NCBI GenBank assembly: GCA_963575745.1
Contig: CAUYUJ010000002.1
Location: forward strand, 310,001 to 374,000
DNA: 64,000 nucleotides
Direction: 5' to 3'
DNA from: Prorocentrum cordatum
Taxonomy: Eukaryota
The notes beneath the pieces were generated by a model. That model was not told the origin of the DNA. It ran no database searches and saw nothing but the letters and a program-made list of their open reading frames with translations. This document shows, one piece after another, positions 1 to 51,070 of this stretch; position 1 is the first letter of the stretch, and each line of letters begins with the position of its first letter. The translations under genes and the position numbers were made by a program.

Positions 1-2
1 AC

Positions 3-1019
3 AACTTCGCCGAGAGGGCGTGCTGTCGCAAGGGGTGCCAAGCTGCGGGGTGGCCAGCGCCGCGGCAGCTGGGCGCCTTTCCTCCGCTGCGGGGGTGGCC
101 TGCAGGCGGCGGCGGTGGTGGTGCTCCTGGCGGCGCTGGCGGCGGGCGCGGCGGGCGTGGGGCAGGCGGCGGCAAGCCTCCCACACGTGCCCCGTGGTGG
201 CGAGGCGGAGAAGGTGGCGGCCGTGACGCTGGTGGCGCCGTGGAGCTCAGCGAGGAGCAGCGCAGTGGCTTCGTGTGCATGGCAGAGGCCGACTTCGCCC
301 TCACCGCCGCGCTCCTGGCCCCGAAGGTCCGCGAGCAGCTTCTGCAGGCACGGAGGCTGCGTGAGGGCGGACTGGGGGCCGAGCTGTCCAAGGACAAGAC
401 GGTCAAGGCGGCCCAGGTGCAGGCGGACGCCAAGGTCTTGCAGGTCAAGAAGTTGGAGGGCCAGCTGGAGCAGGCAAAGGCCAAGGCGGTGGCGGCCATC
501 AACGAGTCGGCCAGCCTCGCGGACAAGTTGGTGCTGCTGCGGAAGGAGTGCGACGAGGCGGCGGCCAAGGCACGCGAGGCGCTGGCGGCTCAGCGCACCA
601 GGGTGGCGGCCGAGGAGGCTGAGGCGGCGGCAGCAGCCGCCGAGCCGAGAGCAGCACCAGCAGCCTCCCTGGAGTCGATACAGGAGGCGATCGGCGGCTT
701 GTCGAGGGACGAGATCGCGAAGCCCGGGAAGGTGCTTGCGGAGCTCAGCGGCATACCAGGCGCCGCCGCCGCAGCGTGGGCGCCTCCCCGTGCGCCTGTG
801 GCAGCGGCGGTCCCTGTGCCCTCGGCGGTGCCAGCAGCAGCGCAGCAGGTGGACGCTCCCAAGGAGGAGGGGCCTGGCGTGTCGCAGGCGGCGCAGCAAG
901 CGTGGCAGGACATCACGTGCGGGATTGAGGACCCCGCCAAGAGGGAAGCAGCGGAGCAGTTGCTGGGCGACGCCAAGAAGATGCGGACGGAGGTCAAGCA
1001 GATGGAGGAGGAGTCCTAG
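3..1019 (+). CDS. Element A ORF1 (5'-partial): C-terminal half of a RanBP2-like zinc finger, Gly/RGG-rich segment, coiled coil
   Basis: Frame 3 is open from base 3: NFAERACCRKGC...GGGRGGRGAGGG...ELSEEQR...KKLEGQLEQAKAKAVAAINESASLADKL. Codons are GC3-rich and the ORF ends in TCC TAG at 1014-1019. Confidence 0.85.
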   Translation, partial: NFAERACCRKGCQAAGWPAPRQLGAFPPLRGWPAGGGGGGAPGGAGGGRGGRGAGGGKPPTRAPWWRGGEGGGRDAGGAVELSEEQRSGFVCMAEADFALTAALLAPKVREQLLQARRLREGGLGAELSKDKTVKAAQVQADAKVLQVKKLEGQLEQAKAKAVAAINESASLADKLVLLRKECDEAAAKAREALAAQRTRVAAEEAEAAAAAAEPRAAPAASLESIQEAIGGLSRDEIAKPGKVLAELSGIPGAAAAAWAPPRAPVAAAVPVPSAVPAAAQQVDAPKEEGPGVSQAAQQAWQDITCGIEDPAKREAAEQLLGDAKKMRTEVKQMEEES

Positions 1020-7000: not shown

Positions 7001-8139
7001 CTGGCGGCAGGCGTGCAGCCGCGGCGCGCCAGGCCGCGGCAGGAGGCGAGGCAGGGCCTGCGGGCGGCGGCGACGGGCCAGGCCCGCGGCGCCGCGCGCG
7101 CGTGCGCAGCAGCTCACCGAGGCAAGACGCTCTGACGCCGCCCTCGCTGTCGCCGAAGCGGGCGGCCAAGGTGGCCAAGCAGCAGCAGGGGGAGAGCCAG
7201 CGGCCTGAGGCGGGCCCCGCCGAGGGGGAAGACGGGGTGGCTGCAGGTGGCAGCGGCGGCGGACCGCCCCCGCCGATGCTGGCGGGCGACGTGCAGGAGG
7301 GGAGAGGCCAGCCGCCGCGGCACATCGCGGGGGAGGAGGACGGCCACTCCTTGCGCCCGCCAGGAGGAGCTCCAGGTGGCGGGGAGGGGGGGGGCGAGGA
7401 CTCCCTGCGCCCCCTGACCCCTGAGGGCTCCAGCGCGGCGGCTGGCCCGAGAGGGCGAGCTGGCGGCAGGCGTGCAGCCGCGGCGCGCCAGGCCGCGGCA
7501 GGAGGCGAGGCAGGGCCTGCGGGCGGCGGCGGCGGGCCAGGCCCGCGGCGCCGCACGCGTGTGCGCAGCAGCTCGCCGAGGCGCCAGGCCGCGGCAGGAG
7601 GCGAGGCGGGGCCTGCGGGCGGCGGCGGAGGGCCAGGCCCGAGGCGCCGCGCGCGTGTGCGCAGCAGCTCGCCGAGGCAGGCCGCGCTGACGCCGCCCTC
7701 GCAGTCGCCGAGGCGGGCGGCCAAGGTGGCCAAGCAGCAGGAGGAGAGCCAGCGGCCTGAGGCGGGCCCTGCCGAGAGAGGAGGCGAGGTGGCTGCAGGT
7801 GGCAGCGGCGGCGGACCGCCCCCGCCACGCGAGGCCAGAGGGGCCAGGTCGCAGGAGGAGGTCCAGCCGCCTGCAGGTGAACCTGCTGCTCGATGCGAAG
7901 CAGGGGCTGCGGGCGGCGACAGCGTGGACTTGGAGGACAGGTCGCAGGAGGAGAGCATGCCGCCTGCAGGTGGCTCTGCTGCTCGATGCGAAGCAGGGGC
8001 TGCGGGCGGCGGAGGCGGCTGGCCGAGGCCGCGGCGCTGCGCGCGGGAGCGCAGCAGCTCGCCAGGCTTGGCCGCCAAGGTGGCGAGGCTGCTGCGGGCC
8101 GCGCGGGGTGAGGCCTGGCCGACAGCCTCGGGCGCGTAG
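1018..8139 (+). CDS. pol: Element A ORF2 polyprotein: APE endonuclease, reverse transcriptase, zinc finger, RNase H, C-terminal Cys/His motif, repetitive tail
   Basis: APE: ICTVNVN, LVQETR, VGGDWN, TIDFFLVS, YPH. RT: GGVRPVAI, LDLLKAYEQV, VLPGDGLAT, VVDD (4516-4527), NLGVDF. Zinc finger: CLRCGARGTLMHRHFDC. RNase H: FLDGSA, GELTA, VDSKYV, WMPSH, GNRLADRAAK. No internal stops. Confidence 0.95.
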   Translation, partial: SKKCGVWRICTVNVNAFSNLGKCMAVSEVQDCDAILVQETRLLEGRSSDAEAQLRSQGWRARGTPAVPSAAGGLSTGGLLTMVRRSHGMAEVQDQQAAVLVAGRVHLCWVSGVLSSGFLLANLYLEAGVGLNDGNVASLRRLARRLRQCRRDFVVGGDWNLTEEELQAGGVPDMFDGKVVRPASPTCAASGRTIDFFLVSRGLAALGVRVVEASPVYPHSAVILEIRRQQEEERFRLVQKPRTFPEVRPQGCCERDHGSSWRQARMRVQEQLASVLRFEGEAAARSTPRAEEEAPQPSSSGGAAGQRTARAGQEIPRPVRGKGAEGVSAAERWGPLSSVLPIAPAPPSCVTDVNLMRCCVQHGEEWQSILDSCGLRREVGAEGLGAAPGVEDQPAHLGALAPGAQGTDAAERGGSSAAGSAVQEAQADIPPHAGTGSAPPSQAPYGIAGCPFQVDAAEGVHVRPPSLWVEKRQAASAAEEEAPRPSSSGGAAGQRAAGAGQELPSPVRGKEAEEVPTAERWGPLGRVLPIAPAPPSCVTDEKLMRCRAQHGVEWQSILDSCGLRQEAGDEGYGAAPRGEVQPARLGAQAPGAHDADAAERGGSSAAGSAAQEEQADSPPHAGTGSAHPSQAPYGIAGSPFQVDAAEGAHVRPPSPWVEKRQAASSAGQAQRLQQDGQAQGAAAEGAKGAFTAAFATFLECAEDEWVDVYQLEEQRARYVGRADGFSTKLVKRSGVQDPRSPRLTPEAAWMARVANALGAMAQLKAPRARVDAICYLPQLVAAVPKRVRKLQQDEEARPGEGGGTSCSTEAGRWLRMLQHGGLACWRPLLLERLADRAKQHASHLAKRDVDERGRQFDEWVGKQLTGGAAGLHAVTRVAVGWQGSDCSIGAGPSSLSKELDDLEKEWSNIWKVQCSHAELEWPSDLGERPPGPSCEVMRAVLRSFRKGTATGFEAIKPRQLLELSDEGIETLIDIVVAVEQAAEWPQIQSKIVFLAKRLGGVRPVAIVHVLAWVQTRLRKPLAEEWERKNDRPFFWAARGRGCERAVWQQAVECEWATAKGREAGDASSWVAALILLDLLKAYEQVQHGRLIQAAQRTGFPLWQLRLQVSLYRAPRWLARDEAVSNAISTEQAVLPGDGLATLMLKMLLLEPLDKLQELVPTLAISVVVDDIILKRVGGFQRTVNDLTLAARHLKELLGEADLEVAVKKSRALANVPAARQEFEKRLLKPLGVRATGQERNLGVDFSGGKRIGRAVRRDRMVQASGRLRRIKVLQVVKAKRRATKRIVKTGLHPCIGYGTAITGCTEGELDRARTLVFVAVSNTTASKSRSLGLMLQAGLDPIYDATCKPVLMLLRAVWERWVPLHMVWRGLEDKRPVSWVHVQGPCAATVLSLRRIGWDVVAANCWVMDDGVAIAPFDCAPWVVVKLVKRAVQRWQWRQVSKAPGCAHLAGGGELEPLVRLTSSGCARKADEPRREEGAPRTRVRLTAREQAYLRSLIIDGQWTQARKEEKGLAPSAGCLRCGARGTLMHRHFDCPCWREVLTLPEDLAGLRRQSGRPEVQLLLERCLWPTPRGICRPPVCSDVCWKGDHDGGTLPGGELFLDGSAFEAGYEEVAAVGWSVVALQAHSDGYRASIAGQMEGHCVDINGGELTAVIMALRFGQGVTVLVVDSKYVYDGFYKVGRVGTTGYAYTWAHLWRRAWDLLDERGGLGHEVSLRWMPSHSTRRQVAAGEVLYRDWYGNRLADRAAKAAAASGRLPVRDRECLERSRDVVERAAMWCAAVGSWVDGSDTTHGKTKVQRALPVRKEPAARMACVWRRPPGLRPWCEVCRWSGRSGECPGSIVAEAIRANNRLKAQQKASHDLVLLAPVDGRLLVRRMPLVACRACGFTGAARASSFHLECKSVPSAAGAAAVARLRKGLAPKVVSEVAVNITMLADDVQEGRGQPPQDIAGEEDGHSLRPPGGAPGGGEGEDEDSLRPLTPEGSSAAAGPRGRAGGRRAAAARQAAAGGEAGPAGGGDGPGPRRRARVRSSSPRQDALTPPSLSPKRAAKVAKQQQGESQRPEAGPAEGEDGVAAGGSGGGPPPPMLAGDVQEGRGQPPRHIAGEEDGHSLRPPGGAPGGGEGGGEDSLRPLTPEGSSAAAGPRGRAGGRRAAAARQAAAGGEAGPAGGGGGPGPRRRTRVRSSSPRRQAAAGGEAGPAGGGGGPGPRRRARVRSSSPRQAALTPPSQSPRRAAKVAKQQEESQRPEAGPAERGGEVAAGGSGGGPPPPREARGARSQEEVQPPAGEPAARCEAGAAGGDSVDLEDRSQEESMPPAGGSAARCEAGAAGGGGGWPRPRRCARERSSSPGLAAKVARLLRAARGEAWPTASGA
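1885..3009 (+). repeat. In-frame tandem duplication, 2 x 564 bp (188 aa), between APE and RT of element A
   Basis: Copies start GCTGAGGAGGAGGCCCCTC (1885) and GCTGAAGAGGAGGCCCCTC (2449). Both end GAGAAGAGGCAGGCAGCCTCT (2445 and 3009). Confidence 0.95.
6815..7826 (+). repeat. In-frame tandem duplication (~459-bp period, with nested sub-duplications) in the C-terminal tail of element A ORF2
   Basis: MLADDVQEGRGQPP starts at 6817 and MLAGDVQEGRGQPP at 7276. The block RQAAAGGEAGPAGGG...RSSSPR occurs three times. Confidence 0.9.
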
Positions 8140-8228
8140 CTGCGCCGAGGCGCGGGCGCGCGTGGGGCGCGCGCCTCGCAGGGGTGGCCGTGGCTCGACG
8201 CGGTCCGCCTCACCCCGCGGGCATCAAG

Positions 8229-13340: not shown

Positions 13341-13447
13341 AGGAGTCGGCGGAGGAGGCGGAGGAGGAGGCGGAGGAGGAAGGAGGAGGAGGAGGAGGAG
13401 GCTGAGGCGGAGGAGGAGGCGGCGGAGGAGGAGGCGGAGGAGGAGGA
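13341..13447. repeat. (GAG)n tract, 5' flank and target of element B
   Basis: Imperfect GAG/GCG run ending in the left TSD, AGGCGGAGGAGGAGGA (13432-13447). Confidence 0.9.
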
Positions 13448-13509
13448 ACCTGTAGCCATTTTGGCTGAAGTCCGTAGTGTTTCGGCACAGGACCTGGCTG
13501 TTTGGCAAG
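13448..13509 (+). other. Dinoflagellate spliced-leader copy plus 1-2 more degenerate SL relicts
   Basis: ACCTGTAGCCATTTTGGCTGAAG matches DinoSL DCCGTAGCCATTTTGGCTCAAG closely. It is followed by TCCGTAGTGTTTCGGCACAGG and ACCTGGCTGTTTGGCAAG. Confidence 0.85.
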
Positions 13510-13637
13510 GGGGAAGGACGGCCCCCACAGTTTCTCCTCTTTGCCTGCCAGACGAGGTTGTTTCCCTTTATTTTTTTGTGAGCTCCTGCTGGAGCAACGA
13601 CGTCCCAGTCAGGTCAGCCCATGGCTACGGCTCGCCG

Positions 13638-15047
13638 ATGGCTCCTCTGTTCTTTCGTGATCCTTGGGTACGCAAGCCAACAGGTGAGCCTCAGCAGTGG
13701 TACCGCGACGGCGAGGCGCTCAGCAAAGCACCCTGCCCCCAATGCGGTTGCAAGAAAAACAAGAAACACTACTGGTTCTGCAAGCATTGTCTGCAGCCAT
13801 TGTCCTTCGTGGCCCCGTCCGCTCCGCCCGAGGCCTCGGCCGCCTGGGCCAGCAGGCCTCCCGCGGGCTCCCACCGCGCCCAGGGCGACGGGGGTGCTGC
13901 GGGCGCAGGCGCCTCCCAGTTCACCAAGGGCGGCAAAGGAGGCAAGTCCGACAACGGCAAAGGCAAGGGTCAAGCCGATGGTCTGTCCTCAGCTCCGCAG
14001 CCACCTGGCCCAGGCAAGCCCGCGGGTGAGCCCAGAATGCCTGGACTTCAACTGGGTGAATCTGGATGGCTACGCTCGGCAGGTCATCACTCCTGGACCA
14101 TCTATACCAAGGAGGAAGTGCCAGTGCTGCTCAGTTTGGCCGCGAACTTCCAGCGCATTGGCGACACGCACAGTGCCGACTTGTACAACCGTTATGCCAG
14201 CCAGCTGCAGATGGCCGCGGTGCCCACGCCCCAGACGGTGGGGGCTGCTCAGCACGCCATGCGTGAGGCGAATAAGTTCCTGGACAAAAAAGTGCGCGCT
14301 GCTGAGGCTCTCAAGCAACAGCTCCACGACGCAGGGCAGGCCGCCATCAGCGCCCTCTCCGATTTCGAGGAGTGCCAAACCAACTACCACAGGGCAGTGC
14401 GTATCCTGGCCGAGCATGTGCCTCCCGAGGGTGCGGGCGCGACAGCGGCCCCCGCAGCCGCGCCCCGCACCCACGGCCTCAGCCTGGAACGCCTGCTGGA
14501 CGAGCACGCCCCTGTCGAGATCTTCGCCGACGACGACCTGTTCGGTTTGGAGGCCGAGGGCGTCGAGCTCTCCGAACACGAGCGCGAAGAGGTGGCTCGG
14601 CGCAAGGCGGAGGTCGAAGACACCATCAAGAGGGCAGTGGCGGAGTCCTTTAGCCAGGTCAAGCAGAGGGCCAAGGAGCTGGTCGACGAGCAGCGCGCCT
14701 TCCGTGCCCGCATGCAGCTCAAGCGTCGCAAGTTCGGCGTCGACGACGAGGGCGACTGCGACGCTGCTAGAGGTGGCGCGCCAGCCACCCCTGGCACGGC
14801 CGCGGCTGCTATCCCCGCGGCAGCCGAGGCCCCAGCGGCCTCTCCTGCCACCGCCCCAGGCCCGAGGGCACCCTCGGCCCCATCGGCTGCCGCAGTGGCC
14901 CAGGCCTGCGGCATCGCCCAGGATTCTACCGTTGAGAAGCGCCCTGTGGATGCGTCGGACTCTGCTGGGCACAGGTTGCGGTTCGACATGGCCCTTGGAG
15001 CTTCAAGAAATTCAGTCGAACCAGTTCTTTCTCAGCCAGGACTTTAG
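13638..15047 (+). CDS. Element B ORF1: RanBP2-like zinc finger, Gly/Lys-rich segment, coiled coil
   Basis: CPQCGCKKNKKHYWFCKHC (N-x6-C-x2-C), KGGKGGK, and the heptad-rich AMREANKFLDKKVRAAEALKQQLHD. First in-frame ATG is at 13638. Confidence 0.85.
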   Translation: MAPLFFRDPWVRKPTGEPQQWYRDGEALSKAPCPQCGCKKNKKHYWFCKHCLQPLSFVAPSAPPEASAAWASRPPAGSHRAQGDGGAAGAGASQFTKGGKGGKSDNGKGKGQADGLSSAPQPPGPGKPAGEPRMPGLQLGESGWLRSAGHHSWTIYTKEEVPVLLSLAANFQRIGDTHSADLYNRYASQLQMAAVPTPQTVGAAQHAMREANKFLDKKVRAAEALKQQLHDAGQAAISALSDFEECQTNYHRAVRILAEHVPPEGAGATAAPAAAPRTHGLSLERLLDEHAPVEIFADDDLFGLEAEGVELSEHEREEVARRKAEVEDTIKRAVAESFSQVKQRAKELVDEQRAFRARMQLKRRKFGVDDEGDCDAARGGAPATPGTAAAAIPAAAEAPAASPATAPGPRAPSAPSAAAVAQACGIAQDSTVEKRPVDASDSAGHRLRFDMALGASRNSVEPVLSQPGL

Positions 15048-15053
15048 CATATC

Positions 15054-15520
15054 ATGGCAGTGGGCAACTACGTTCGGGACTTCGATTTCGACGTCTCCGA
15101 CATGGTCGCCACACTCACCTGCCATGAGACCGAAGAGACCCCCCCCCCAGACAAAACCCTAGGTATGCCAGCGTCCGCGAGGCGCTGTCACCGCCTAGAG
15201 GGACCCTGGGGCAGGGAATCGGCGCGAGCATGGCAGGCAGAGGGCGCCACATGTTCGCGGCACGGCTTGCCTCGCGATACCTCTTCCACGGGCACTGCCA
15301 CACTAGGTTGGGGGCAGCCGGAAATTGCCCCGAGTTTCTCAAGCTGCGCACGCATGATGTCAGCATCATCATGGTTTCAGTTTCGCCTTCCTGCTCAGCT
15401 ACCCTGTCATCCTGTCCAGTCGCCGTCGGCAGGGGCGGCGCAGCCATCATCTACTACGACAGCCGTTTCAGCATCGGCGTCGCGAACTCCCGCTTGCACA
15501 GGCCCCCGACCGTGCAGTGA
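15054..15520 (+). pseudogene. Probable extra ~155-aa ORF in element B between ORF1 and ORF2, frameshifted at a C-run near 15140-15147
   Basis: GC3-rich codons read MAVGNYVRDFDFDVSDMVATL in one frame, then ...RYASVREAL...AIIYYDSRFSIGVANSRLHRPPTVQ* in the other. No recognisable domain. Confidence 0.45.
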
Positions 15521-18500
15521 GTCTGGTGGCGCGAGTGAGCAGGATGCCAGCACGCCTGGCGCTCGCACCAAACCCACTCCTCCTTCCTCGTCAGAGTTGA
15601 AGCGCGTGGTGTTCGACACGGCCAATACTACGTCCTGGGGATCTCTCAAAACATACTTGCAGGACGAGGCCCAGGGGGCCATCGTGTTCCTCCAGGACTT
15701 CAGCTTCGGGGAGCCGCCGTGCGAGGGGGTCAACCAGCTGAAGAGCATAGGGTGGAAATCTATCGTCAACCCCAGTGTCCCCACCCTGGCAGGGGGACTC
15801 AGCAGCGGTGCAGGAATTGCGGTTCGTCCGCACATCCCCATTGGAGCTTTGCCACTCGCTCGCCCTTATTTTCCTCAGCCTGAGAGGGTATGCTCCGCGT
15901 GGGTCAACACGTTCGTCCCTGGAGGCCTGGCTGTCTCCTCGCTTTATTTAGATTGCAACGATCCGCTGGGCATCGACTCGTTCAGGATTTTGAATCGCAT
16001 TGGTGAAGAGATCCACCAGCTGCAGATCCCGTTCAACATTGGAGGGGATTGGACTACTCACCCATCACAGCTGCTCAACACTGGGTGGGTTGACCGTCTA
16101 GGCGGCGCAAATTTGCATTCTAGCAGACCCACTTGCCGCAAGTCGGACAAGCAGTGGAGGACCATCGATTTCTTGGTTGTCTCGCGGGGCCTCGAGTCCG
16201 CCATGAGAACGATTGATCGCAACGAGGCCAGCACCACATCGCCCCATTACGCGGTGTCGTTGGAGCTCGAAGGGGATCCATTGGAGGCCAAGGTCAGATT
16301 CTGCAAGGGCCCAAGCCGTTCCCGAAGGAGCGCCCCATGGGCCCCTACCCGACTCCCCCGTCGTGGGCTGCCTGCAGCGACATCCTCGACAGCCCCAGTG
16401 TGGCCCCTCACGATCTGGACCAGGCTTATGTTCAGTTCTGCAAGCTTTTCGAGGCGGAACTCAAGAGTGCCCACAACGTCGATTGCCTGGACCGCACCTA
16501 TTCTGGCAGGGCCAACGGGCTCAAGCTTACAGAGGTTTCAGCTGTGAGGACTTCTGAGGGTGATTATCTTGTTTCTTGTCCTGAAGGCCGTGCTTGGAGG
16601 AAGGTGGCTATTTGGTTTCTGGAGTTGGCGTGCCTGCTTAGGAAAGACTACCCCAGGGACCATCCACAGATCCTCTCGCTGGGCTCCAAGTTGGCCTCGG
16701 GCCCGAATAAGCTCCTCGAGAACCCTGAGTGGAAGCACTTGCGCGCGCATTTCCAGCTCGGCTCGATTGAGATTATCCAGTTCCTGCAGTTTGCCGCTGC
16801 GCCCATGCGCCAGGCAGAGCTGTTCGAACGGCGCTTCCGCACCAAGAGGGCCAAGCAGTGGCGGACTTGGGTTGCTAAATCTCTCGAGGGAGGAGGAGGC
16901 CTGGCGCGCCGGTTCACCAAGAAGCCTCGTGGGTTCATCCCCGACAGCCCCAAAGGGGGCCCCCCTCCCAGCCTTGAGGAGCAGATGAGGTGTCTGGAGG
17001 AGGAGTGGAAGAAGATCTGGACCCCTGCCCATCACGTTGCCAACCAGCCCGACTCCATCCAATACCTCAGCCAAGTCATTTCTCGGTCTGGAGAACAGCC
17101 TCTCGCTCAGGCGTCTCCTGAGGACATCCGTGCTGTGGCCAAGACCTTCAAGGCGCACGCGGCCGCGGGGGCAGACCGCACCAGACCGCAGGACTTTTTG
17201 CTGTTATCCGACGCAGGCTTGAAGTGCCTGGCGAGCATGTGGTTTCACAGGGAGCGCCTTGGCCATATGCCAGAGCCCCTCCATCACATCCTGCTCGCAA
17301 TGATTCCTCGCGGGGACGGTGGTCGCCGACCTATCGGAGTTCTACCAGGAAACATTCGTATATTCGGTAGGTTTTCTCGGATCGAAGCCAAGAGGTGGGA
17401 GGGGGCCCATCCTCGCGCGCGCGTATCAGTTCGGCAGCAAGGGCAAGTCATGCGAGAGGGCTATGTGGGAGCAGTCGGTTCGTCTCGAGCATGCGCACAT
17501 ATGCAAACATCAATCTGCACACGCCCTGGTTAACATGACCAAATGCTACGAAAAGGTGCCCCATTACCTCCTCGCGCGCGCGGCGAGTAAGCACGGCTTC
17601 CCAGCGCATCGGCCTAGGTTCCTGCTTGCGCTGTATCGGGGCAAGCGCTCGCTGCAGTTTGACATGCGAGTATCAGCAGATCTTTATGTCGAGCAATGGA
17701 TCCTGGCAGGCTGTTCGTTTGCCACCACTCTGGACGTGTTGGGCGGCGCTGTCCGCCTCTACCCCTGCATATCTGTCTACAATGTCGTGGGTGACGTTGC
17801 TGTAGGATCTGTGGGTAAGCGCAAGCATGTTACCCACATGGTCTTGGGAGCCACCAAGTTCATCTGTGTCCAGCTCGAGGCCTTGGGGTTCACCATCTCG
17901 CCCACCAAAGGTATCGTCGCGGGCTCGTCGGCCCAGGTCGTCCAGGTCATCCGCGTGGGGCTCTTGTTCTGGGAGTTCAAGGGCATGGGGGCCACGAAGA
18001 ACCTAGGGGTGGACGTCGCAGGGGCTCCCAGGCGCTCTACCAAGGTCCAGCAGCGACGTTGGCAATCCCTTATCCCGCGCATCAGGAGGTCCCGTGGTCT
18101 CAGGTCGACCCTCTCGAGCATGCACAGGGCCATCGAGACGGGTGGGGCCCCGGCGGCCCTTTGCGGCGCCAGGGTCACTGGCATGGCCCCGACCCAGCTG
18201 GCCTCTTTGAGAGCCATCATCGGAGATGCGGCAGTCGGCCCTGCCAGGGGCCATAGCAGAACGATCCAGTTCCTCCTCAACCAGGACCACAAGTTGGACC
18301 CAACCTACCAGGCTAATCTGCTCCCTCTAGGAATGTGGCACCAGGCGATCCAACACCGGTGGCTTCCCAGGTCCATGCTTAGTTGTTGCTGGAAGCATTA
18401 CCAGTCCTCCAACTCTGCTGGCAAACGGTCCAAGGTCCTCGGCCCAACAGGCGTCGTGCTGGCCACTCTGCCGCGTCTCGGTTGGGCGGGAGTGGGGTTC

Positions 18501-20004
18501 GACAAGTGGGACATCGGGGGCGGGATCTCTATCGACCTCGGTTCCTTTGGTAGGCACACGGTGGCCACCTTGATCGAGCAGGCCACCTACCGCCAGTTGC
18601 TGCGTCATGTATCCATCCCGAACGCGGCTGGCCAGTTATGCCCGCCTCTCATATCAGCGGTCCAAGAGGAGCTGCAGGCCTGTCGTAGTAAAGATGACGT
18701 CGGCGCCACCATCTTCCTGAGCGGAGTGGTTGCAGGAGGGTACCCGTGCCAGTTGCAGTTGTTCACTGGCCTCCGTGCGTTGAACCCCCACTGCCTCCGC
18801 TGTGGCCAGGCCCACGGGACCCCCAAGCACAGGCTCTACGAGTGCCCAGGCTTCCACCTCTTCCGTCGAGATCTCGATTTGGCCGATGTCGTTCGAGAAG
18901 GAGTCGGTTGACCCGAGCAAGATTTGTTGTGCACTAGGGCCCTTGGACCCGACCCTGGGGCCGAATGCCCCCCCTGTCCATGGCCGATTCCAGGCTCTGG
19001 CACCTCCGCCCTTCCTCGGGCCCCCTTGGCCCTCGGCTCTGCATTGACGGGTCGGGTCTGGACCAAGGGAACCCGTTTTCGGCCAGAGCTGGTTGGGTTG
19101 TTGTTGGTATGCAAGAAGTAGGGGGCTCTGACGGCAGCGTCTTCGGGCCCCTCCCCCACCCCCTTCAACGAAGCGGAGGGGGGAGATTTACGCCCTCATC
19201 ATGGCCATCCGTCTTGCTGCCCCTGGCCTCCTTATCATTTACTCGGACTATCAAGCTGTCATTGCCATTTGGACAGCTGGCCCCAACGCGGACCGCTCCC
19301 ATGTCGCTTTCGCTGAGTTGTGGGATGAGTTTTTTTTTTCTGGCCACCGACTTCGGACTCGAGAACATCGAGCTCCGTAAAATCGAGGCCCACCTTTCCT
19401 GGCAGGCGTGCTCCCGAACCTCCAAGGCGCTGTTCTGGGCTTGGTCTGGCCACACGCTCGCTGACAAGCTTGCTCAGCAATGTGCCAAGGCGCATGTTTC
19501 GAATCCTGAGCTTGTGCGCAGGCGCAAAGATAGCAGCGATTCGGTCCGTTCCGTTTGCAAACTCATTGGCGCCTTTGGTAATCATTTGTCTCATTTCAAG
19601 TTACCCGACGTCCAGCGGGTAAGGAAGGCCCGCCGCCCGACGTACAACGCCCTCCAGCTCGTCCCAGACCGTCAAGGCCACGTTCTGCAGCGAGTGGGCA
19701 AATCTTCTCGAGCGTAGGTCGTGGTCTGTCTGAGCGTGCTGTGTGTGCTATGCCATGCACGGGCCTCCCACGATTGGCCCGCCTGGCCGACAAGTCTCAT
19801 CGGCTCTGGGTCATGGGCTCCTCCCTAGTGTGGTGCTCTACGTGTGCAGCCTTCGGGAGTTCCAGGCTCCGCTTGCTCGGAGGTCCCTGCCGTGGGAACC
19901 CCCGCAACAAGGAAGGAGAGAAGACCCTGAGGCTGCTCAAGGAGGGGAAGGATCCTTCCACCAACGGAGTGGTGGGCAGGAGCTTTCGCCTCACCATCTC
20001 TTAA
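15519..20004 (+). pseudogene. pol: Element B ORF2 (APE-RT-ZnF-RNase H), several frameshifts and stops
   Basis: APE: FDTANTTSW, VFLQD, IGGDW, TIDFLVVS, SPH. RT: GGRRPIG, NMTKCYEKV, ILAGCSFAT, VVGD, NLGVDV. Zinc finger: CLRCGQAHGTPKHRLYEC. RNase H: CIDGSG, KIEAH, GHTLADKLA. C-terminus: HRLW...CSTC...C. Confidence 0.92.
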
Positions 20005-20079
20005 TTCACCCCCCCTTTTTAACCCTGGGCGTCGTGTTCCATCTGGAGGCAGACGTTCCGCAGCTTGAAGGAGCTTGAA

Positions 20080-20315
20080 AGGTGGAGGAGGAGGAGTCAG
20101 GAGGCGGAGGAGGAGGAGGAGGAGGAGGAGGAGGAGGAGGAGGAGGAGGAGGAGGAGAAGGAGGAGGAGGGAGGAGGAGGAGGCGGAGGAGACGGAGGCG
20201 GAGGAGGAGGAGGAGGAGGAGGAGGACTAGGAGGAGGAGGAGGATCCCTAGAGGATGAGGAGGAGGAGGAGGAGGAGGGAGGAGGAGGAGGAGGAGGAGG
20301 AGGAGGAGGAGGAGG
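20080..20315. repeat. (GAG)n tract, 3' flank of element B
   Basis: Long GAG run beginning with the right TSD. Confidence 0.9.
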
Positions 20316-44024: not shown

Positions 44025-44071
<47 letters not shown>

Positions 44072-44077
44072 GCTACC
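42690..44077. repeat. (TAC)n microsatellite field, 5' flank of element C
   Basis: Pure and degenerate TAC runs ending in the left TSD, TACTACTACTGCTACC (44062-44077). Confidence 0.95.
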
Positions 44078-44099
44078 TCCGTAGCCATTTTGGCTCAAG
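44078..44099 (+). other. Perfect dinoflagellate spliced leader (DinoSL) forming the 5' end of element C
   Basis: TCCGTAGCCATTTTGGCTCAAG equals DCCGTAGCCATTTTGGCTCAAG at 22/22. It is not followed by a GT donor. Confidence 0.98.
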
Positions 44100-44212
44100 C
44101 GGGCGCAAGTCACGGCGTGGCGCTGCGAGCACTCTGGGGGAGTGCTGGCGGGGCCAAAATCCACTTCAACGATTTAGAGCGATCAAGTCTGTTGCCCCAG
44201 TCCTCGCGCGCT

Positions 44213-45233
44213 ATGGCCAGCCATGGGCGCGGCGGACCCGAGGGAGCAGGGGTTGTGCTCCGCGGGCCCAAGTCACCGCTGTGGCTTTGCTCCTGCGGCT
44301 GCGCATCCAACTGGGCCAGCAGGCTCAGGTGCAGAGAGTGCGACAGGCCGTGCTCCACCAAGGTCGAGGACGCCGCCAGGACGGCTCACAAGGAGGCGAC
44401 CAAGGGCGGGCCCAGGCCGGGTAGCCACCAGCAGCCCCGTGGCGTCTGGGCGCGGCAGAAGCTGGCCCCGTGGGGGCACGACAAGCGTCAGCGCCAGGAC
44501 AGCGAGCTGGCCGCCCTTCGGCAGCAGGTCGGGGCGCTCAAGGCAGACAGCGCCAAGGCCAAGCTCACCGCCCTCAGTGACCTCAAGGAGGAGCTCCAGA
44601 AGCTGGGAGGAGGCGAGCAGGCCACGAGCTGCGTCAAGGCTGTGGAGGCCAAGTACTCCGAGCCGCCCAAGCCCAAGAGCCTCCCAGCCCTGGAGGGGCA
44701 GCGCAGGAAGCTCGAGGGCCAGCACCAGAAGGCACTCGCCAAGGTCGCAGAGCTCGAGGACCAGCGTGCCAAGCTCGACCTGCGGATCTGCGAGGCCAAA
44801 GACTCGGTCGCAGAGCTCAAGGGCAAGCTGCAGGCGGCCGACGCCGAGATCGAGTCCCGCCACGCCGCTGGCGTCCTCGGCGACGGGCTCAGGGGCTTGG
44901 CCAAGGTCCTCGAGCAGTTCAAGGCTACGGCAGTGGAGAACCAGGCAGTACTTCACGGACTCATCCAGTTGCAGGACGTCATCCAGAAGGAACAGGAGAC
45001 TCTGGAAGCAGCCGGCGACGCTGCACCTGCTGCTGGCGCTGCTGGCTGCGGCGGCGGGGACAGACACGAGGGTGTCCCTGGCAGTGCTGAGCCAGGAGGT
45101 GAGTCTGTCCCCGTCCCAGACGAGCTGGTCGACAGTCTCATGGAGGAAGCCCCAGGACGGCGAAAGCTATGAGCAGCGCCGCAAGCGCTTCAGCGACATC
45201 ATCGGGGCCCAGTTCAAGCGGCCTCGGGTTTGA
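44213..45233 (+). pseudogene. Element C ORF1: RanBP2-like zinc finger + coiled coil; probable 1-nt frameshift near 45150
   Basis: WLCSCGCASNWASRLRCREC and LEGQRRKLEGQHQKALAKVAELEDQRAKLD. The GC3-rich frame switches to QDGESYEQRRKRFSDIIGAQFKRPRV* ending at 45233. Confidence 0.8.
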
Positions 45234-48200
45234 TAGCCTGTCGCTCTACTCTGTCAATGCGAACACCGAGAAGGGCTATCGGGACTTCCTCGACTGGCTG
45301 GACGGCCTGCACAGTCTCGAAGTTGCAGGGCCGACGAGGCGGCCAGTAGCAGACATCACATTCGTGCAGGAGACGCGGGTGCGTGAATTCGGCAGAGAGA
45401 CAGTCCAGCGTTGGCATCGGAGGCGTGGTTTCGACTTCGGCCTTGCTGCGGGGCTCAGCACGGGTGACGCGCCTCAGTCCGTCTCAGGCGGGGTGGGCAT
45501 CGGTGTTCGGCAGCGGTTTGCGGTTGCCACGCTCGACGCCAAGTTCAAGCAGCCCCACCGCGTGCTCAGACGGGTGGTCAACGTAGGCGACGGGCTCGCC
45601 ATCGATCTCATGTCTGTCTACCTCCGCGACGGGGAGGGCATGAGTGAGGCCAACGCAGACATCCTATGGGACGCGGCGTCGCAGCTCAGGGTGGCGGCGC
45701 GGCCGTGGATTCTAGCTGGCGGCTTCAACATAGACCCCCTCCAGGTCGCGGCGCGGGCGGCGCCGGCTGGCGGACTCGCGCTACATACAGAAACAGCGAC
45801 CTGCAGGGCGGGGGCGCTCAACGAGGTCGGCTTCGCGATCATCTCCAACGAGCTCCAGCAGTTCGTGTTCAGCCACGGGCCCGTGGTCGAGGCCCCCATC
45901 GGGCCGCGCAGCCCCGTCCCGTTGGAAGTGCGAGGGCTGCATGCAGACGCCACGGTGCAGCAGCTACACCGCACGGCTCGGCTGCCGTTCGATCGGGCCA
46001 TCGGCTGCTTTCCATGGGCCCCGCTGCCTGCCTGGACCTGGGAGGAAGGCGCGGTCCCCCCTAGCCCGCGGGCGGCCATGCAGGAGTGGCTTCGGCACGC
46101 TGAGGGCCACCTTCTCCCGCTCTACGACCTGCGCGGCGACGAGGCTCAGAAGTTCGCTGGCAGGGCGGACGGAGTGCGCTTCGCCAACGTTTCGATTGCC
46201 GACGCCAGCCGCCGCCGTTGGGCCCAGCTCAGCTCGAATGAGACCCACGCCTGGGGTGGGCTGGTCAGCCTGTTGCAGCGCGCGGCCTTGCTGGTGGCGC
46301 GAGGGAAGGACCTACAGGGCTTGGCCAGCCTGCGCAGTCGTCTGGCTGCGACGCGCCTGGCCGACTACGACGGCAGCATGGCCCCTGTGCCCAGAGGTGG
46401 GCTGGGCGCTGCGGCTACCTCTAGCGACGCGGCCTTGAGGAGGAGGCCCATCGAGCACGCCAGGGTCCAGCGGCAGGCCAGCCAGCGCAGCGACGCCGCA
46501 GCCGCCAGGAAGCAGTGGCAGGCCTGGGCCAAAGGCGCGGCTACAGGCGGGGGGGGGGGGGGAGCTGGCCCATCGCTTCTCCAGGCCCGAGCCGCTGGCC
46601 AAGGCGACCCTCGTCACGGCGGACGAGGGCGAGGGCGACGTGCTGCCCGTCAACGGCGACGAGGCAGTGCAGCATTGCCTCAAGGAGTGGCTCCCGCTTT
46701 GGCTGGATCCTCGGCGCCGAGGAGGACTTGGGGAAGCGGCCAGCTGGGAGGTGACCGAGCCGCTGCCGAACCTCGAAGTGGGCAGCCTCAAGTACCTGCT
46801 CAAGCGGTACGGGAGGTGGGCTGGCCTGGGGTGGGACCAACTCCACCCGAGACAGCTGCTCCCTCCTGGACGAGTCCTTCCTGGCCAGGCTCCTCGAGGT
46901 GCTGGCCAGCTGGGAGGACTCGCCCGAGGCCTACTTGGACTGGCTCTCGGTCATCGTCTTCCGCGCCAAGGCTGACGGTGGCACGAGGCCTATTGCGCTC
47001 ACCTGCCTTCAGGTTCGTTTCTGGTCGGCCATGCGCGGGCCCATCGTCAGGCAATGGGAGGCGCAGCACCGCGAGGCCTGGTACATTGGCGGGGAGCTCA
47101 ACACGTGTGAGAGGGCTGGCTGGGTACACCAGACCCTCACGGCCCTGGACTATGAGACAGGCCTCAGCACGGGCGCGGCCCTGGGCGACCTGCGGAAGTT
47201 CTACGAGAACATCAGCCACCAGGAGCTCTTGGTGGAGGCGCAAGCCACGGGCTTCCCCATCAAGCTCCCCAGGGCTTGCTGCGTCACGCACTCAGGCTAC
47301 AGGGTCATCGCGGTTGACGGGGCCTGCAGCTCGCCCTTTCGAGCTACGGGCACGGTGCTTGCAGGCTGCTCCTGCGCGACGGGGATCGCCAAGCTTCTCC
47401 TTTTCAGATATTTAAAACAGGTTGCGGCCTTCTACCCCAGCGTGCGGCTGGGCAGCGTCGTCGACGACTTCGCGCTCCAGACCGTTGGCGCCACGGGCAT
47501 GGTGAAGGCAGTGCTAGGGCCCGCCACGCGCATGCTGTTGGGCTGCTTCGACGAGAAGCGGGTGCCCGTCTATTTCGGGAAGCTATGCTACCTCGCACCC
47601 GACGCGGAGGTTGCGAAGCAGCTGGAGTCGGAGTGGCCCGCCGAGGACGGCAGGGCGCAGCGTGGCAGGCTGCTAGGCAACGACGTGCACGACGGGCGCT
47701 GGAGGCGCACCGCCCTCGGGGCGCAGCGCGTCGAGGATGCGCTGGCAAGGTCTCGGCGGCTGCAGGTACTGAGGACGGCTGGCGCCAAGGTCGCCACGGT
47801 GCAGAGGGGCGGCCCCACGGCAGCCGCCACCTGGGGCTCGGCCACGACTGGCCTCGCCCCCTCGGTCCTACACGGGCTACGGGTTGCTGCAGCGCGTGGC
47901 GAGGGGCCATTTGCGCCGGGTGCATCCGTCGGCCTGCGGCTGAGGTGCTACCCTAAAGGCATCGAGAGGGACCCCGCGGTGGTGAACGCAGGCCAGGTCG
48001 TGCTGCAGTTCGGCATGGCGCCCTGGCTGGGCTACCCCACTCCGTTCGCCCTCAACGCGCTGCTGGAGATGGCCAAGCAGCGGTTCGCGACGGCGAAGCG
48101 GCCGCGGGCAACCTGCAGGGACCCCGTGGCAGCCTTTTTCCTCACCATCAGCAGGCTCGGCTGGTCCATCGAGGGCGGCAGGTACGTCACCACTGACCAG

Positions 48201-49975
48201 GGGTTGGAGGTCGACCTCTCCCCTTTGTCTCGCCGTCCTTCAGCATGGAGCTGGCAGAGGGAGCGGCCAAGAGGTGGTCCGACCGCGACGCCACCTTCAG
48301 GCTCTACTCCCATCAGAGCTCGGAGTTGTACTGGGGTTCGCTGCAGCGGCTGGGCAGGACCAAGGAGTCGCTCGGCTGGCAGCAACACCAGCGAGCGGCC
48401 CTCCACTCGGTCATCTCAGGCACGGTGCTCTCCCAGACGCGGCTCTACAAGAGAGGCATGGCCTCCGAGTGGGACTGCCTCATGTGCAGGGGCGCTCCTT
48501 GCACGCTCTGGCACAGGCTGTGCGGCTGCGACGGTCATGCGGCCTTTCGTAAGGACGAGGCCTCGCCCGAGCTCCTTCGGCACGCGGAGGTGGCACGGGC
48601 AGCAGGAGGCAACTGCGGCGAGATGTTTGGCAGGTGCCTCTTCCCGTCGCTCGACCATGTGATCCCGAGGCGCGACCCAGATGGGGATCCAGTTCGCTGG
48701 TATCGGCGCCCAGCCTCGGGGTACCTCACCGGCCTCATCTTCACCGACGGCAGCGCGGTCGGCACGCGGTGGCCAGAACTGCAGCGCGCGGGCTGGTCGC
48801 TCGTGCAGTGCGACAGACATGGGCGCCTGGTTGCTGCAGCATGGGGATGGGTGCCCCTCTCCATGGCGCCGCGGCAGGAAGCGCGGGACGGCGAGGACTA
48901 CGCATGCCACATGGCGGCCTTCCTCTGCGAGGGCCACGTCGACTTCCAGACGGACTGCACAGGGGCGGTGGACTGCGCCCTGAGGGGAGCAGCATGGGCA
49001 TGCCGCCCTGGGTCGCCGAGGGCCCACATGTGGAACGCGTTCTACGCCTCCTTCGACGGCTCACGCAGCTACACGGTCACCAAGGTACTGGCCCACGCTA
49101 CCGCTGCCGACGTTGAGGCAGACCGCACGACCTGGTGGCAGCGTGCAGGCAACAGGCTCGCTGACGAGGCTGCGAAGGAGGGTTCGAAGCTGGCGCTGAC
49201 AGACGACCAGCTGGACGTTGCCTACGGCCTCGACCTCATCGCAAGGCAGGCGATGATCTTCACGGGTAAGCTCCACGCGCGCATGGCGGATCGGAAGCAG
49301 ATCGATCACGCCAGCGACGTCATCCTGGAGTTCTCGGAGCCCGAGGCGGGCGACGAGGAGCCTGAGGCCAGCGGGGGCCACGCTGCCGAGCCCTCCTGGG
49401 TGGCGGCTGGCGCGGCGGTGGTGGCCCTAGCAGCTGCGCGGGCCTCGGCGGAGGGCGACGAGCCACCTGCAGCCCGACGACCTCGGCAGCCTTGGTCGAT
49501 CGGAGGCCACGCCATCGTCGAGCGGGCCGTCACGGGGCCTGGCACGGACGGCACCACCATGGTCCACTGCGTGAAGTGCTACGCCTATGCCCACCAGCGC
49601 ACGCAGGGCATCCTGAGGCCGCGCGGCACGGGGGCAGGACGTGAGCCACAGACTGATCGGATTCGCAGAGGGCTGTTCCCTAGCGCGAAGGGCGGCCGAG
49701 GAGCATGGCGCCTCGGGGAACAGCTTTTTCTCTCTGAGGCCTGGCAAAGGAAATTCAGCCAGAGGCTTTCGCCCCCCGCCGCCCCCGAGGCCAGCAGGGC
49801 CACGGGTAGCGGGCAGCAGGGCCCAGCTCAACGCTTGCCCCGCTCGCGAGCGCTGTTGCGTTTTGGGGTCGGGCCAGAGCAGGAGGCCGACTTCCTTTCC
49901 TGGTCGGCCAGGCAGCGTGCTGCCCGGAGGTGCGAGGGAGACCCCGACGAGCTCGAAGGGGATGCCTCCGACTAA
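45232..49975 (+). pseudogene. pol: Element C ORF2 (APE-RT-ZnF-RNase H), frameshifts near 46550, 46860 and 48235
   Basis: APE: YSVNAN, FVQETR, LAGGFN. RT: GGTRPIAL, GDLRKFYENI, VLAGCSCAT, VVDD. Zinc finger: CLMCRGAPCTLWHRLCGC. RNase H: FTDGSA, DGEDYA, TDC, KVLAH, GNRLADEAAK. C-terminus: CVKC. Confidence 0.93.
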
Positions 49976-50233
49976 GAGGGTTGGTTGGAGGCGCCCCTCT
50001 TCTTTTTCTTGCAGGTGCAGAGGCTCGTACTTTGTGTAGGCTTCTGCAGGCTTGGGGAGGCCCCAACTTAGTGGGTTGGGGCCCTTTGGCTTCTGCGGGG
50101 CTCCGACAAGGGTTCGGGGCCCGCGAGGCTCTGCTCTAGAGTGCCCCTGGCGCCCTGAGCTGGACTGGACTGTCCTTCAGGTAGGGGGTTGGGTCGGCTC
50201 GGCCAACCCCCCGCCTGCCGTGTAGCGAGGCGG

Positions 50234-51070
<837 letters not shown>

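What the first reader, a model, noticed from the sequence alone, without database searches (positions are those of the whole stretch)
44062..50249. Non-LTR retrotransposon whose 5' end is exactly the host spliced leader
Seen: element C lies between exact 16-bp TSDs (TACTACTACTGCTACC, which include the non-repeat interruption TGCTACC), and its first 22 nt are a perfect DinoSL. The divergent relative B also starts with an SL immediately inside its TSD. Established: DinoSL is trans-spliced onto dinoflagellate mRNAs; relict SLs mark retroposed genes; SLACS/CRE and NeSL elements insert into SL genes. Here the SL is part of the element and the target is a microsatellite. Inference: the transposition intermediate is an SL trans-spliced RNA copied to full length. 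The SL's own terminal AG could act as the acceptor that regenerates the same 5' end each cycle. The element could then use host read-through transcription without an internal promoter or 5' ribozyme.
Basis: partly seen in the sequence, partly recalled or inferred. Interest (0 to 1): 0.93.

Follow-up and report, generated by a model that had tools for sequence, protein, structure and literature searches.

The report
Dinoflagellate LINE that starts with spliced leader
A jumping gene in a dinoflagellate genome carries the host's 22-base mRNA leader as its very first bases, which shows it was copied back into DNA from a fully processed host-style messenger RNA; this is an expected but apparently undescribed consequence of known dinoflagellate biology.

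Summary
Window 44078-50233 (+) is a 6,156-bp non-LTR retrotransposon, copy C, with ORF1 and an APE-RT-RNase H ORF2. An exact 16-bp target-site duplication (TSD) inside a (TAC)n array bounds it. Its first 22 nt are a perfect dinoflagellate spliced leader (DinoSL), directly inside the 5' TSD. It has no poly(A) and no terminal repeats. ORF2 changes frame at least twice, so this copy is defective.

The anatomy is not a one-off. I could see the 5' end of six related elements: C, B and four metagenome contigs. Five begin with an SL or SL remnant; L123 has a perfect SL plus a relic.

This supports the reading that the transposition intermediate is an SL-trans-spliced mRNA copied to its 5' end. The finer idea, that the SL's own terminal AG restores the same 5' end each cycle, is not shown. 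B and L123 carry a second SL remnant behind the first.

No RNA run and no whole genome were available.

I found no paper stating that dinoflagellate LINEs start with DinoSL, although it follows from known retrogene recycling. Verdict: new variant of a known kind, moderate interest.

The parts
44062..44077 (+). 5' copy of the 16-bp target-site duplication TACTACTACTGCTACC, in a (TAC)n array
44078..44099 (+). perfect 22-nt DinoSL; these are the first bases of element C
44100..44212 (+). 113-nt 5' UTR of C. The bases just after the SL (CGGGCGCAAG) are not significantly SL-like (score 6).
44213..45172 (+). ORF1, 319 aa. It has an N-terminal Cys-rich zinc-finger-like motif (WLCSCGCASNWASRLRCRECDRPC) followed by a coiled-coil-like region. 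Its stop overlaps the ORF2 start in ATGA at 45169-45172.
45169..46590 (+). ORF2, first frame: apurinic/apyrimidinic-type endonuclease (APE) domain
   Evidence: hhalign against the family profile A2: probability 99.4%, E 3.6e-21
46725..48260 (+). ORF2, second frame (frameshift somewhere in about 46580-46755): reverse transcriptase
   Evidence: tblastn with A, E 2.6e-28; RVT_1, E 0.0083, below Pfam's cut-off
48386..49975 (+). ORF2, third frame: RNase H region and C-terminal Cys/His-rich part. The frame change is a 2-nt surplus in C at 48218-48220 that the two run-X1 contigs at that place lack.
   Evidence: table 4
49976..50233 (+). 3' UTR. It ends ...GCGAGGCGG with no poly(A) or A-rich tail.
50234..50249 (+). 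3' copy of the 16-bp target-site duplication, at the start of an 837-bp (TAC)n array
13448..20083 (+). Element B, a distant relative (25-33% aa identity to A) broken into several frames. It lies in (GGA)n, with a possible 12-bp TSD at 13436-13447 and 20084-20095.
13448..13470 (+). B's SL copy: ACCtGTAGCCATTTTGGCTgAAG, with one inserted T and one C>G change
13471..13491 (+). B's second, more decayed SL-like stretch, directly behind the first: TCCGTAGTGTTTCGGCACAGG
   Evidence: score 9; a score of 9 or more occurs in about 0.014 of 50-nt background windows
1..8228 (+). Element A. It has an open 2,712-codon frame with APE, RT and RNase H, and ORF1 lies in another frame (3-1019). The 3' end is followed by a (TCC/CTC)n array. 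The 5' end lies an estimated 230-360 nt upstream of the window.

Best explanation
Copy C is a now-defective member of a multicopy family of APE-type non-LTR retrotransposons in a dinoflagellate nuclear genome.

Shown:
- The copy was inserted into a (TAC)n microsatellite with a 16-bp target-site duplication.
- The inserted cDNA runs from the element's 3' UTR to the first base of a DinoSL.

Inferred from established knowledge (DinoSL is added to nuclear mRNAs by trans-splicing, and cDNAs of such mRNAs re-enter dinoflagellate genomes):
- The template was the element's own mRNA after SL trans-splicing.
- The element's reverse transcriptase copied it to its 5' end by target-primed reverse transcription.

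The same SL-first anatomy appears in four other, very divergent relatives (25-30% aa identity). SL-capped RNA is therefore probably the normal transposition intermediate of this whole dinoflagellate LINE group.

Inferred, not shown:
- A resident copy is transcribed from outside, by read-through or a neighbouring promoter.
- It is released and capped by a new SL joined at an AG at or near its 5' edge. It is then translated and copied again.
- The second SL remnants in B and L123 show that at least some SL-bearing copies went through another round.
- SL remnants do not pile up. That implies either splicing at the resident SL's last AG, or loss of 5' bases by incomplete reverse transcription (L133 and L129 start inside the SL), or both.
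- Preference for microsatellite targets is likely, but its cause is unknown.
For: Anatomy of C:
- TSD, SL and 3' end.
- LINE domains.
- No terminal direct or inverted repeats of 25 nt or more.

Multicopy family:
- run X1 covers all 29 element bins with short contigs that carry many differing letters.
- Runs X3 and X2 have depth in 28 and 15 of all 30 bins.

Recurrence of the SL:
- The only two SL matches in 64 kb both lie at LINE 5' ends.
- One search returned 21 related metagenome loci. Four of them show a 5' end.
- L123 has a perfect 22-nt SL at 76-97, followed by AACCACTTTTGCTCAAG at 98-114. ORF1 starts at 281, and APE and RT are present.
- L133 reads (CA)n followed by AGCGATTTGGCTCGAG at 16-31.
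- L129 has an AT-rich flank followed by GTTTGGGCTCAAG at 279-291.

Background test (337 kb searched):
- An SL alignment score of 10 or more occurs in 0.0034 of 50-nt windows, 11 or more in 0.0009, and 9 or more in 0.014.
- Observed scores: L133 10, L129 10, the L123 relic 11, B's second SL 9.

These are true 5' ends:
- ORF1 of C, L133 and L129 starts 113-236 nt behind the SL with the same Cys-rich motif.

Microsatellite targets:
- Period-3 arrays cover about 2.7 kb of the roughly 43 kb of window DNA outside the elements.
- All three elements abut such arrays. A rough chance estimate is 0.063 cubed, about 2.5e-4.
Against: - Only C has a provable TSD. B's is ambiguous because both flanks are a repeat. 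For L123, L133 and L129 the 3' junction is missing or no matching TSD was found.
- L131 shows no SL where its 5' end is inferred, after (GT)n near 5652 (score 6).
- The count of 5 of 6 leaves out 17 of the 21 loci. Their contigs seem to stop inside the element. For L126 and L139 that judgement is uncertain. None of the 17 has an SL-like 21-mer with up to 5 mismatches.
- C is frameshifted. It may have been mobilised in trans or have decayed later.
- There is no transcript evidence of any kind.
- There is no family-wide census, because no genome is held.
- The L133 and L129 remnants are significant only because of where they lie.
Confidence: 0.82

Rival explanations
1. Self-renewing 5' end. The resident SL's terminal AG (bases 21-22) is the trans-splice acceptor, so each cycle replaces the old SL with a new one and restores the identical 5' end.
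For: C has exactly one SL, and nothing SL-like follows it (score 6). There is no AG in the (TAC)n flank upstream. Argument: a LINE lineage passes through many cycles, yet none of the five SL-bearing elements has more than one extra remnant. Net growth per cycle must therefore be near zero.
Against: B (a full second SL-like stretch) and L123 (a 17-nt relic) show new SLs joined upstream of or inside the old one. Passages in PMC12014239, PMC7245778 and PMC5585692 describe host-gene relics as typically CCATTTTGGCTCAAG, which points to use of the internal AG. Near-zero net growth can also come from 5' truncation, since L133 and L129 begin inside the SL. No RNA data exist.
Confidence: 0.25
2. Dead-end by-product (strict master-copy model). 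A few SL-less master copies with their own upstream promoter and acceptor produce all copies. SL-bearing daughters such as C never transpose again, so the SL has no role in the life cycle.
For: C is defective. One SL without a relic is what a first-generation daughter would show.
Against: The double SL remnants in B and L123 require at least one SL-bearing copy to have been re-expressed, re-spliced and re-copied.
Confidence: 0.15
3. The SL acts as a portable promoter. The TTT(T/G) motif inside the retained SL serves as a core promoter, so each copy carries its own promoter. This is the hypothesis Song et al. 2017 made for host retrogenes.
For: Passages of PMC5585692 report TTT(T/G) retained in relics and the best-kept relics lying 50-100 bp upstream of start codons. 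In C the SL lies 114-135 nt upstream of the ORF1 ATG.
Against: My argument: transcription starting downstream of the TTTT, followed by splicing at a later AG, would shorten the 5' UTR every cycle. That cannot keep a LINE's 5' end stable. Promoter activity of the SL has not been tested in the passages I read.
Confidence: 0.12
4. Template switch. The reverse transcriptase reached the 5' end of an SL-less element RNA and jumped onto an SL RNA or another SL-bearing mRNA, making a chimera.
For: None specific. LINE reverse transcriptases are known to switch templates (recalled, not from a call).
Against: The junction holds exactly the 22-nt SL exon. There is no SL-RNA intron sequence and no foreign mRNA sequence. 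The same arrangement recurs in different families.
Confidence: 0.03
5. Coincidence or SL-gene targeting. The element landed beside an existing SL relic or inside an SL RNA gene, as SLACS, CRE and NeSL elements do.
For: None.
Against: The SL lies inside the TSD. The flanks are (TAC)n, not an SL gene. The endonuclease is APE-type.
Confidence: 0.01

Closest known systems
Dinoflagellate retrogenes with relic DinoSL ('recycling of processed cDNAs'). Slamovits and Keeling 2008 as described in passages of PMC7245778 and PMC6050394; Song et al. 2017, PMC5585692.
   Same: An SL-trans-spliced mRNA is reverse transcribed and inserted, so the SL becomes genomic. Repeated rounds leave tandem SL remnants, as in B and L123.
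   Different: Here the recycled mRNA is that of the retrotransposon itself, with its own APE and RT, a clean 16-bp TSD and no poly(A). The passages I read treat the reverse-transcribing machine as unknown. PMC6050394 favours LTR Ty1/copia elements. PMC5585692 notes only that the GO term 'RNA-dependent DNA replication' is enriched among SL-tagged genes.
SL-bearing transposable elements in Schistosoma mansoni (PMC5832876, passages)
   Same: Genomic SL exons were found merged to six transposable or retrotransposable elements. The authors suggest these are trans-spliced, retro-transcribed elements.
   Different: Different phylum and different SL. No TSD-level anatomy is given, and the authors allow for assembly chimeras.
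SLACS/CZAR/CRE (trypanosomatids) and NeSL-1 (nematodes). Recalled; not read here.
   Same: Non-LTR retrotransposons tied to the spliced leader.
   Different: Those insert site-specifically into SL RNA genes and use a restriction-like endonuclease. C carries the SL as its own 5' end, targets a microsatellite and has an APE endonuclease.
L1Tc/ingi with the Pr77 internal promoter (PMC1874656 and PMC8190864; abstracts in search listings)
   Same: LINEs living in a genome whose mRNAs are all SL-trans-spliced.
   Different: These elements take the opposite route. An internal 77-nt promoter gives abundant unspliced but translatable transcripts, and there is no SL at the 5' end.
Microsatellite-specific LINEs of animals. 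Recalled; no call.
   Same: Insertion into simple repeats. Here that is TAC, GGA/TCC and CA/GT arrays next to 5 of the 7 elements seen.
   Different: Family relationship untested. The cause of the specificity here is unknown.
Dinoflagellate +ssRNA virus (dinoRNAV) transcripts and endogenous copies with a 5' dinoSL (PMC10235124, passages; locus L067)
   Same: A selfish genetic element whose RNA carries the host SL, with nearby LINEs proposed as the integrating machine.
   Different: An RNA virus with an RdRp, not a retrotransposon.

Membership tests
Non-LTR (LINE) retrotransposon, APE type | Reverse transcriptase domain | tested here: met
   C: tblastn with A gives E 2.6e-28; Pfam RVT_1 E 0.0083, below the cut-off. 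A: RVT_1 E 9.6e-4, below the cut-off. L123: RVT_1 40.9 bits, above the cut-off.
Non-LTR (LINE) retrotransposon, APE type | N-terminal apurinic/apyrimidinic-type endonuclease in ORF2 | tested here: met
   C against the family profile: hhalign probability 99.4%, E 3.6e-21. Exo_endo_phos scores reach Pfam's 24.5-bit cut-off only in L133 (24.5 bits); A scores 17.0 and L123 22.6 bits, both below it.
Non-LTR (LINE) retrotransposon, APE type | No long terminal or inverted repeats; flanked by a target-site duplication | tested here: met
   No terminal direct or inverted repeats of 25 nt or more in 44078-50233. Exact 16-bp TSD.
Non-LTR (LINE) retrotransposon, APE type | 3' poly(A) or simple-repeat tail (typical of many LINEs, not defining for all) | tested here: not met
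   A, B and C end without an A-run. L129 and L133 have short A-runs near their presumed 3' ends.
A named LINE clade (L1, I, Tad1, R1, ingi and others) | Placement in an RT phylogeny with reference elements | not testable with these tools
   No reference LINE sequences were at hand. A profile of 13 family members found only RNase H domains among solved structures and no LINE reverse transcriptase. A single-sequence search found nothing.
SL-gene-specific retrotransposons (SLACS/CRE/NeSL) | Site-specific insertion inside an SL RNA gene | tested here: not met
   Both flanks are (TAC)n, and the SL is inside the TSD.
SL-gene-specific retrotransposons (SLACS/CRE/NeSL) | Restriction-enzyme-like endonuclease C-terminal to the RT (recalled feature) | tested here: not met
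   The endonuclease is APE-type and N-terminal.
Dinoflagellate retrogene (retroposed host mRNA) | Genomic DinoSL at the 5' end of an mRNA-derived copy | tested here: met
Dinoflagellate retrogene (retroposed host mRNA) | The copied gene does not itself encode the endonuclease and RT (definition in PMC5585692, passage) | tested here: not met
   C encodes both.

The most novel reading that the evidence does not exclude
A whole, very divergent group of dinoflagellate LINEs may be promoter-less and SL-dependent. They would rely on host read-through transcription, and SL trans-splicing at their own 5' edge would cut out, cap and make translatable a full-length RNA. The retained SL would supply the next acceptor, so the 5' end renews itself. 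These same elements, which demonstrably copy SL-capped RNA to the last base, would be the long-sought engine of the massive retrogene formation in dinoflagellates. Homing to microsatellites could come from pairing of read-through 3' repeat RNA with the nicked target.
Probability: 0.3. Interest if true: 0.75.

Novelty: new variant of a known kind. Interest (0 to 1): 0.55.

Why it matters
More than 20% of genes in sequenced Symbiodiniaceae carry SL relics (PMC5585692). The passages I read say the machine that reverse transcribes and inserts those mRNAs is unknown. One review leans towards LTR elements (PMC6050394).

A LINE that carries a complete SL directly inside a clean TSD is direct anatomical evidence. 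It shows that an APE-type LINE machinery in a dinoflagellate copies SL-capped mRNA to its first base and integrates it by target-primed reverse transcription.

It also raises a testable idea: in a genome with SL trans-splicing, a retrotransposon may need no promoter of its own.

In practice, SL-tagged 'retrogene' counts will include such LINE copies. SL-primed cDNA libraries will capture their transcripts.

Tried and rejected
- RNA evidence: no RNA holder was listed by the look-up of sequencing runs, so expression and transcript 5' ends could not be examined.
- Read laying: contigs are short. The aligner skipped the repeat at 43999-44082, so nothing can be said about what lies upstream of the SL in other copies.
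- One X1 contig joins 43948 to 50252 with 16 other letters between. It lacks 113 nt of unique flank and 4 nt at the 3' side. I take it as a paralogous or collapsed TAC-rich path, not an empty site.
- Metagenome scan with C's ORF1: 417 pattern matches, none a relative.
- Viral-contig scans with A's RT and with profile A2: no relatives.
- tblastn of A, B and C proteins against 119 SL-bearing IMG/VR loci: no hit at E 1e-5. The best E at a cut-off of 1 was 0.38.
A closer one (A4) found a single 3.5-kb contig that does not reach a 5' end.
- Earlier notes of this scan: none for this genome or these words.
- Host genes around the elements, to judge orientation relative to transcription: 27 long frames gave no convincing Pfam family.
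- The idea that pyrimidine-rich target repeats supply a splice-site tract: rejected. B has purine-rich (GGA)n upstream on its sense strand, and A has (TCC)n downstream.
- The stretch CGGGCGCAAG after C's SL as a decayed relic: not significant (score 6).
- TSD search for L129 and L133: no convincing match.
- Supplementary tables of PMC5585692 and PMC8045281 may list RT-encoding genes with upstream DinoSL. I did not open them.

Full report
**Observation**

TACTACTACTGCTACC lies at 44062-44077 and again at 50234-50249. The neighbouring bases differ, so the repeat is exactly 16 bp.

Between the two copies, GC content jumps from about 0.43 to 0.65-0.70. The first 22 bases of the GC-rich block, 44078-44099, are TCCGTAGCCATTTTGGCTCAAG. 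That is a perfect dinoflagellate spliced leader (DinoSL, DCCGTAGCCATTTTGGCTCAAG as quoted in PMC7245778 and PMC5585692).

With up to 3 mismatches the SL 21-mer matches only twice in the 64 kb window, and 0 of 100 shuffles gave a match. The 15-nt relic form also matches only at these two places.

The exact 16-mer occurs only at the two borders. Nine one-mismatch variants lie in the TAC-rich surroundings. The repeat therefore counts as a target-site duplication mainly because it sits exactly at both edges of the element.

**What the block is**

- ORF1 (44213-45172, 319 aa) has an N-terminal Cys-rich motif and a coiled-coil-like stretch. The motif's likeness to RanBP2-type zinc fingers is my recollection. 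Pfam reported no such family.
- ORF1's stop overlaps the next start in ATGA at 45169-45172.
- The following region matches a profile of 13 relatives over the apurinic/apyrimidinic-type endonuclease (APE) domain. The hhalign probability is 99.4% and E is 3.6e-21.
- Reverse transcriptase follows in a second frame: tblastn with element A gives E 2.6e-28, and RVT_1 is weak.
- RNase H follows in a third frame, at E 4e-8.
- There are no terminal direct or inverted repeats and no A-rich tail.

So this is an APE-type non-LTR retrotransposon with at least two frame changes.

The second frame change is a 2-nt surplus in this copy at 48218-48220. Both contigs of run X1 that make up the depth there lack those two bases (table 4). 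That suggests other copies of the family read through at this site.

X1 contigs cover all 29 element bins and carry many differing letters. The family is therefore multicopy and of mixed age. The figure of 1,204 laid contigs also includes contigs on the TAC flank, so it is no copy number.

**Relatives in the window**

Element A (1 to about 8228) has an open 2,712-codon frame with Exo_endo_phos, RVT_1 and RNase_H matches. Only RNase_H exceeds Pfam's cut-off. ORF1 lies in another frame, and a (CTC/TCC)n array follows the element.

A's ORF1 fragment at window base 3 aligns with residues about 40-50 of C's ORF1. A's 5' end should therefore lie roughly 230-360 nt beyond the window. That is an estimate and is untested.

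Element B (13448-20083) is broken into several frames and sits in (GGA)n. It starts with ACCtGTAGCCATTTTGGCTgAAG. Directly behind that comes TCCGTAGTGTTTCGGCACAGG, a more decayed full-length SL-like stretch.

A, B and C share only 25-33% amino-acid identity.

**Is SL-first general?**

No genome is held, so I looked in public collections.

- A metagenome scan with C's ORF1 found nothing.
- A scan with an alignment of A's RT and five database relatives returned 21 loci, at 25-48% identity. They are about equally distant from A, B and C.
- In 17 of the 21 the contig seems to end inside the element. For L126 and L139 that judgement is uncertain. None of the 17 holds an SL-like 21-mer with up to 5 mismatches.
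- Four loci show a 5' end.

The four with a visible 5' end:

| Locus | 5' end | Source |
|---|---|---|
| L123 | Perfect 22-nt SL at 76-97, then AACCACTTTTGCTCAAG (a relic, 98-114), a 183-nt leader, ORF1 from 281 and a long open frame with APE and RT | |
| L133 | (CA)n, then AGCGATTTGGCTCGAG at 16-31 | |
| L129 | AT-rich flank, then GTTTGGGCTCAAG at 279-291 | |
| L131 | Nothing SL-like where its 5' end is inferred, after (GT)n | |

I tested these against 337 kb of background from the window and loci, both strands:

| SL alignment score | Share of 50-nt background windows |
|---|---|
| 9 or more | 0.014 |
| 10 or more | 0.0034 |
| 11 or more | 0.0009 |

Observed scores were 10 for L133, 10 for L129, 11 for the L123 relic and 9 for B's second SL.

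ORF1 of C, L133 and L129 begins with the same Cys-rich motif 113-236 nt behind the SL. These are therefore true 5' ends.

Count: 5 of 6 elements with a visible 5' end start with an SL or an SL remnant.

**Mechanism**

Shown: the SL lies inside the TSD and is exactly the 22-nt exon joined to the element body.

Established, from passages of PMC7245778, PMC5585692 and PMC12014239:
- DinoSL is added to nuclear mRNAs by trans-splicing.
- cDNAs of such mRNAs re-enter the genome.
- Re-expressed copies get a new SL, which leaves relics.

Inference: the intermediate was the element's own trans-spliced mRNA, copied to its first base by target-primed reverse transcription.

The double remnants in B and L123 mean that SL-bearing copies were themselves expressed, re-spliced and copied again. 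This argues against a strict master-copy model in which daughters are dead ends.

In B the new SL was joined just upstream of a full old SL, and a (GGA)n flank offers AGs there. In L123 it was joined inside or near the start of the old one.

Even so, none of the five elements has more than one extra remnant, although LINE lineages pass through many cycles. Net growth per cycle must therefore be near zero. Two things could achieve that:
- loss of 5' bases by incomplete reverse transcription, since L133 and L129 begin inside the SL.

I cannot separate these two.

The published idea that the SL's TTT(T/G) acts as a portable promoter (PMC5585692) would, by my argument, erode the 5' UTR every cycle. 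It is therefore an unlikely steady-state mechanism for a LINE.

**Targets**

Period-3 arrays cover about 2.7 kb of the roughly 43 kb of non-element window DNA. A, B and C all abut such arrays. The rough chance estimate is 0.063 cubed, about 2.5e-4.

L133 and L131 abut (CA)n and (GT)n. A preference for microsatellites is therefore likely. Its cause could be endonuclease specificity or pairing of read-through repeat RNA with the target. This is open.

**Literature**

I ran five searches. I read passages of PMC3229502, PMC12014239, PMC8045281, PMC7245778, PMC5890265, PMC3942190, PMC7789003, PMC11453091, PMC5585692, PMC10235124, PMC5832876, PMC10666404 and PMC6050394. None states that dinoflagellate LINEs begin with DinoSL.

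The nearest statements are:
[quoted passage not shown] Subscription papers, including Slamovits and Keeling 2008, and supplementary tables were not seen. The point may be in print there.

**Verdict**

The core interpretation, an SL-trans-spliced full-length RNA intermediate, is well supported and extends to a divergent LINE group. The self-renewing terminal-AG mechanism and promoter independence remain hypotheses.

The anatomy is a logical corollary of known cDNA recycling, so it is a new variant of a known kind rather than a new kind. It still gives concrete evidence that APE-type LINEs copy SL-capped RNA completely. That bears on the open question of what drives dinoflagellate retroposition.

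A protein clustered at 90% identity with a database relative of A (P0002, itself 41% identical to A) is named as from Prorocentrum cordatum. The source organism of the window is not established.

Noticed in passing
IMG/VR loci L001-L119 (e.g. L012: 4001-4021 and 5899-5919): The exact DinoSL 21-mer occurs in 134 distinct contexts in 119 'viral' loci. Most are AT-rich giant-virus MAG contigs up to 267 kb long. In 118 of the 132 contexts with enough flank, the 30 nt upstream are at least 75% A+T and often form a conserved motif. The base before CCGTAG is A in 127 of 134. In 118 of 134 an ATG opening at least 100 codons follows within 200 nt (median 52.5 nt). L012 also encodes an NAD-dependent DNA ligase. 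This looks like giant viruses that write the host spliced leader into the start of their own genes, behind a viral promoter. One literature search listed no paper whose title or abstract is on this; I did not open the listed papers.
   Followed up: partly
L067 (contig end; SL on the minus strand at 4001-4021): A 5.3-kb contig ends exactly at a DinoSL. A 788-codon frame with a viral RdRP_1 match follows it. This resembles the dinoRNAV transcripts with a 5' dinoSL described in PMC10235124.
   Followed up: partly
window 8230-8276, 13351-13447, 20080-20315, 44025-44076, 50234-51070; L133 1-15; L131 about 5628-5652: Five of the seven LINE copies seen abut microsatellites (TCC/GGA, TAC, CA/GT). This suggests repeat-directed insertion.
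   Followed up: partly
window 45169-45172: ORF1's stop and ORF2's start overlap as ATGA in element C. This layout fits translational coupling.
   Followed up: no
window 44285-44356; L133 298-360; L129 about 590-650: ORF1 of these LINEs begins with a conserved Cys-rich motif (P.W.CS.CG...NWA.R..C..C). It resembles a RanBP2-type zinc finger from memory, but Pfam gave no such hit.
   Followed up: partly
window about 1900-3500 and 6900-8100 (element A): A's long frame holds large internal duplications. A block of about 230 aa between the endonuclease and RT occurs twice. A Gly/Arg/Ala-rich C-terminal block occurs two to three times, including a 96-bp x2 repeat at 7485-7678.
   Followed up: no
window 20812-22155 and 28709-30764: Two satellite-like tandem arrays, with units of 99 bp (about 10 or more copies) and 159 bp (about 10 or more copies). 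No recognisable host gene lies anywhere between the elements.
   Followed up: no
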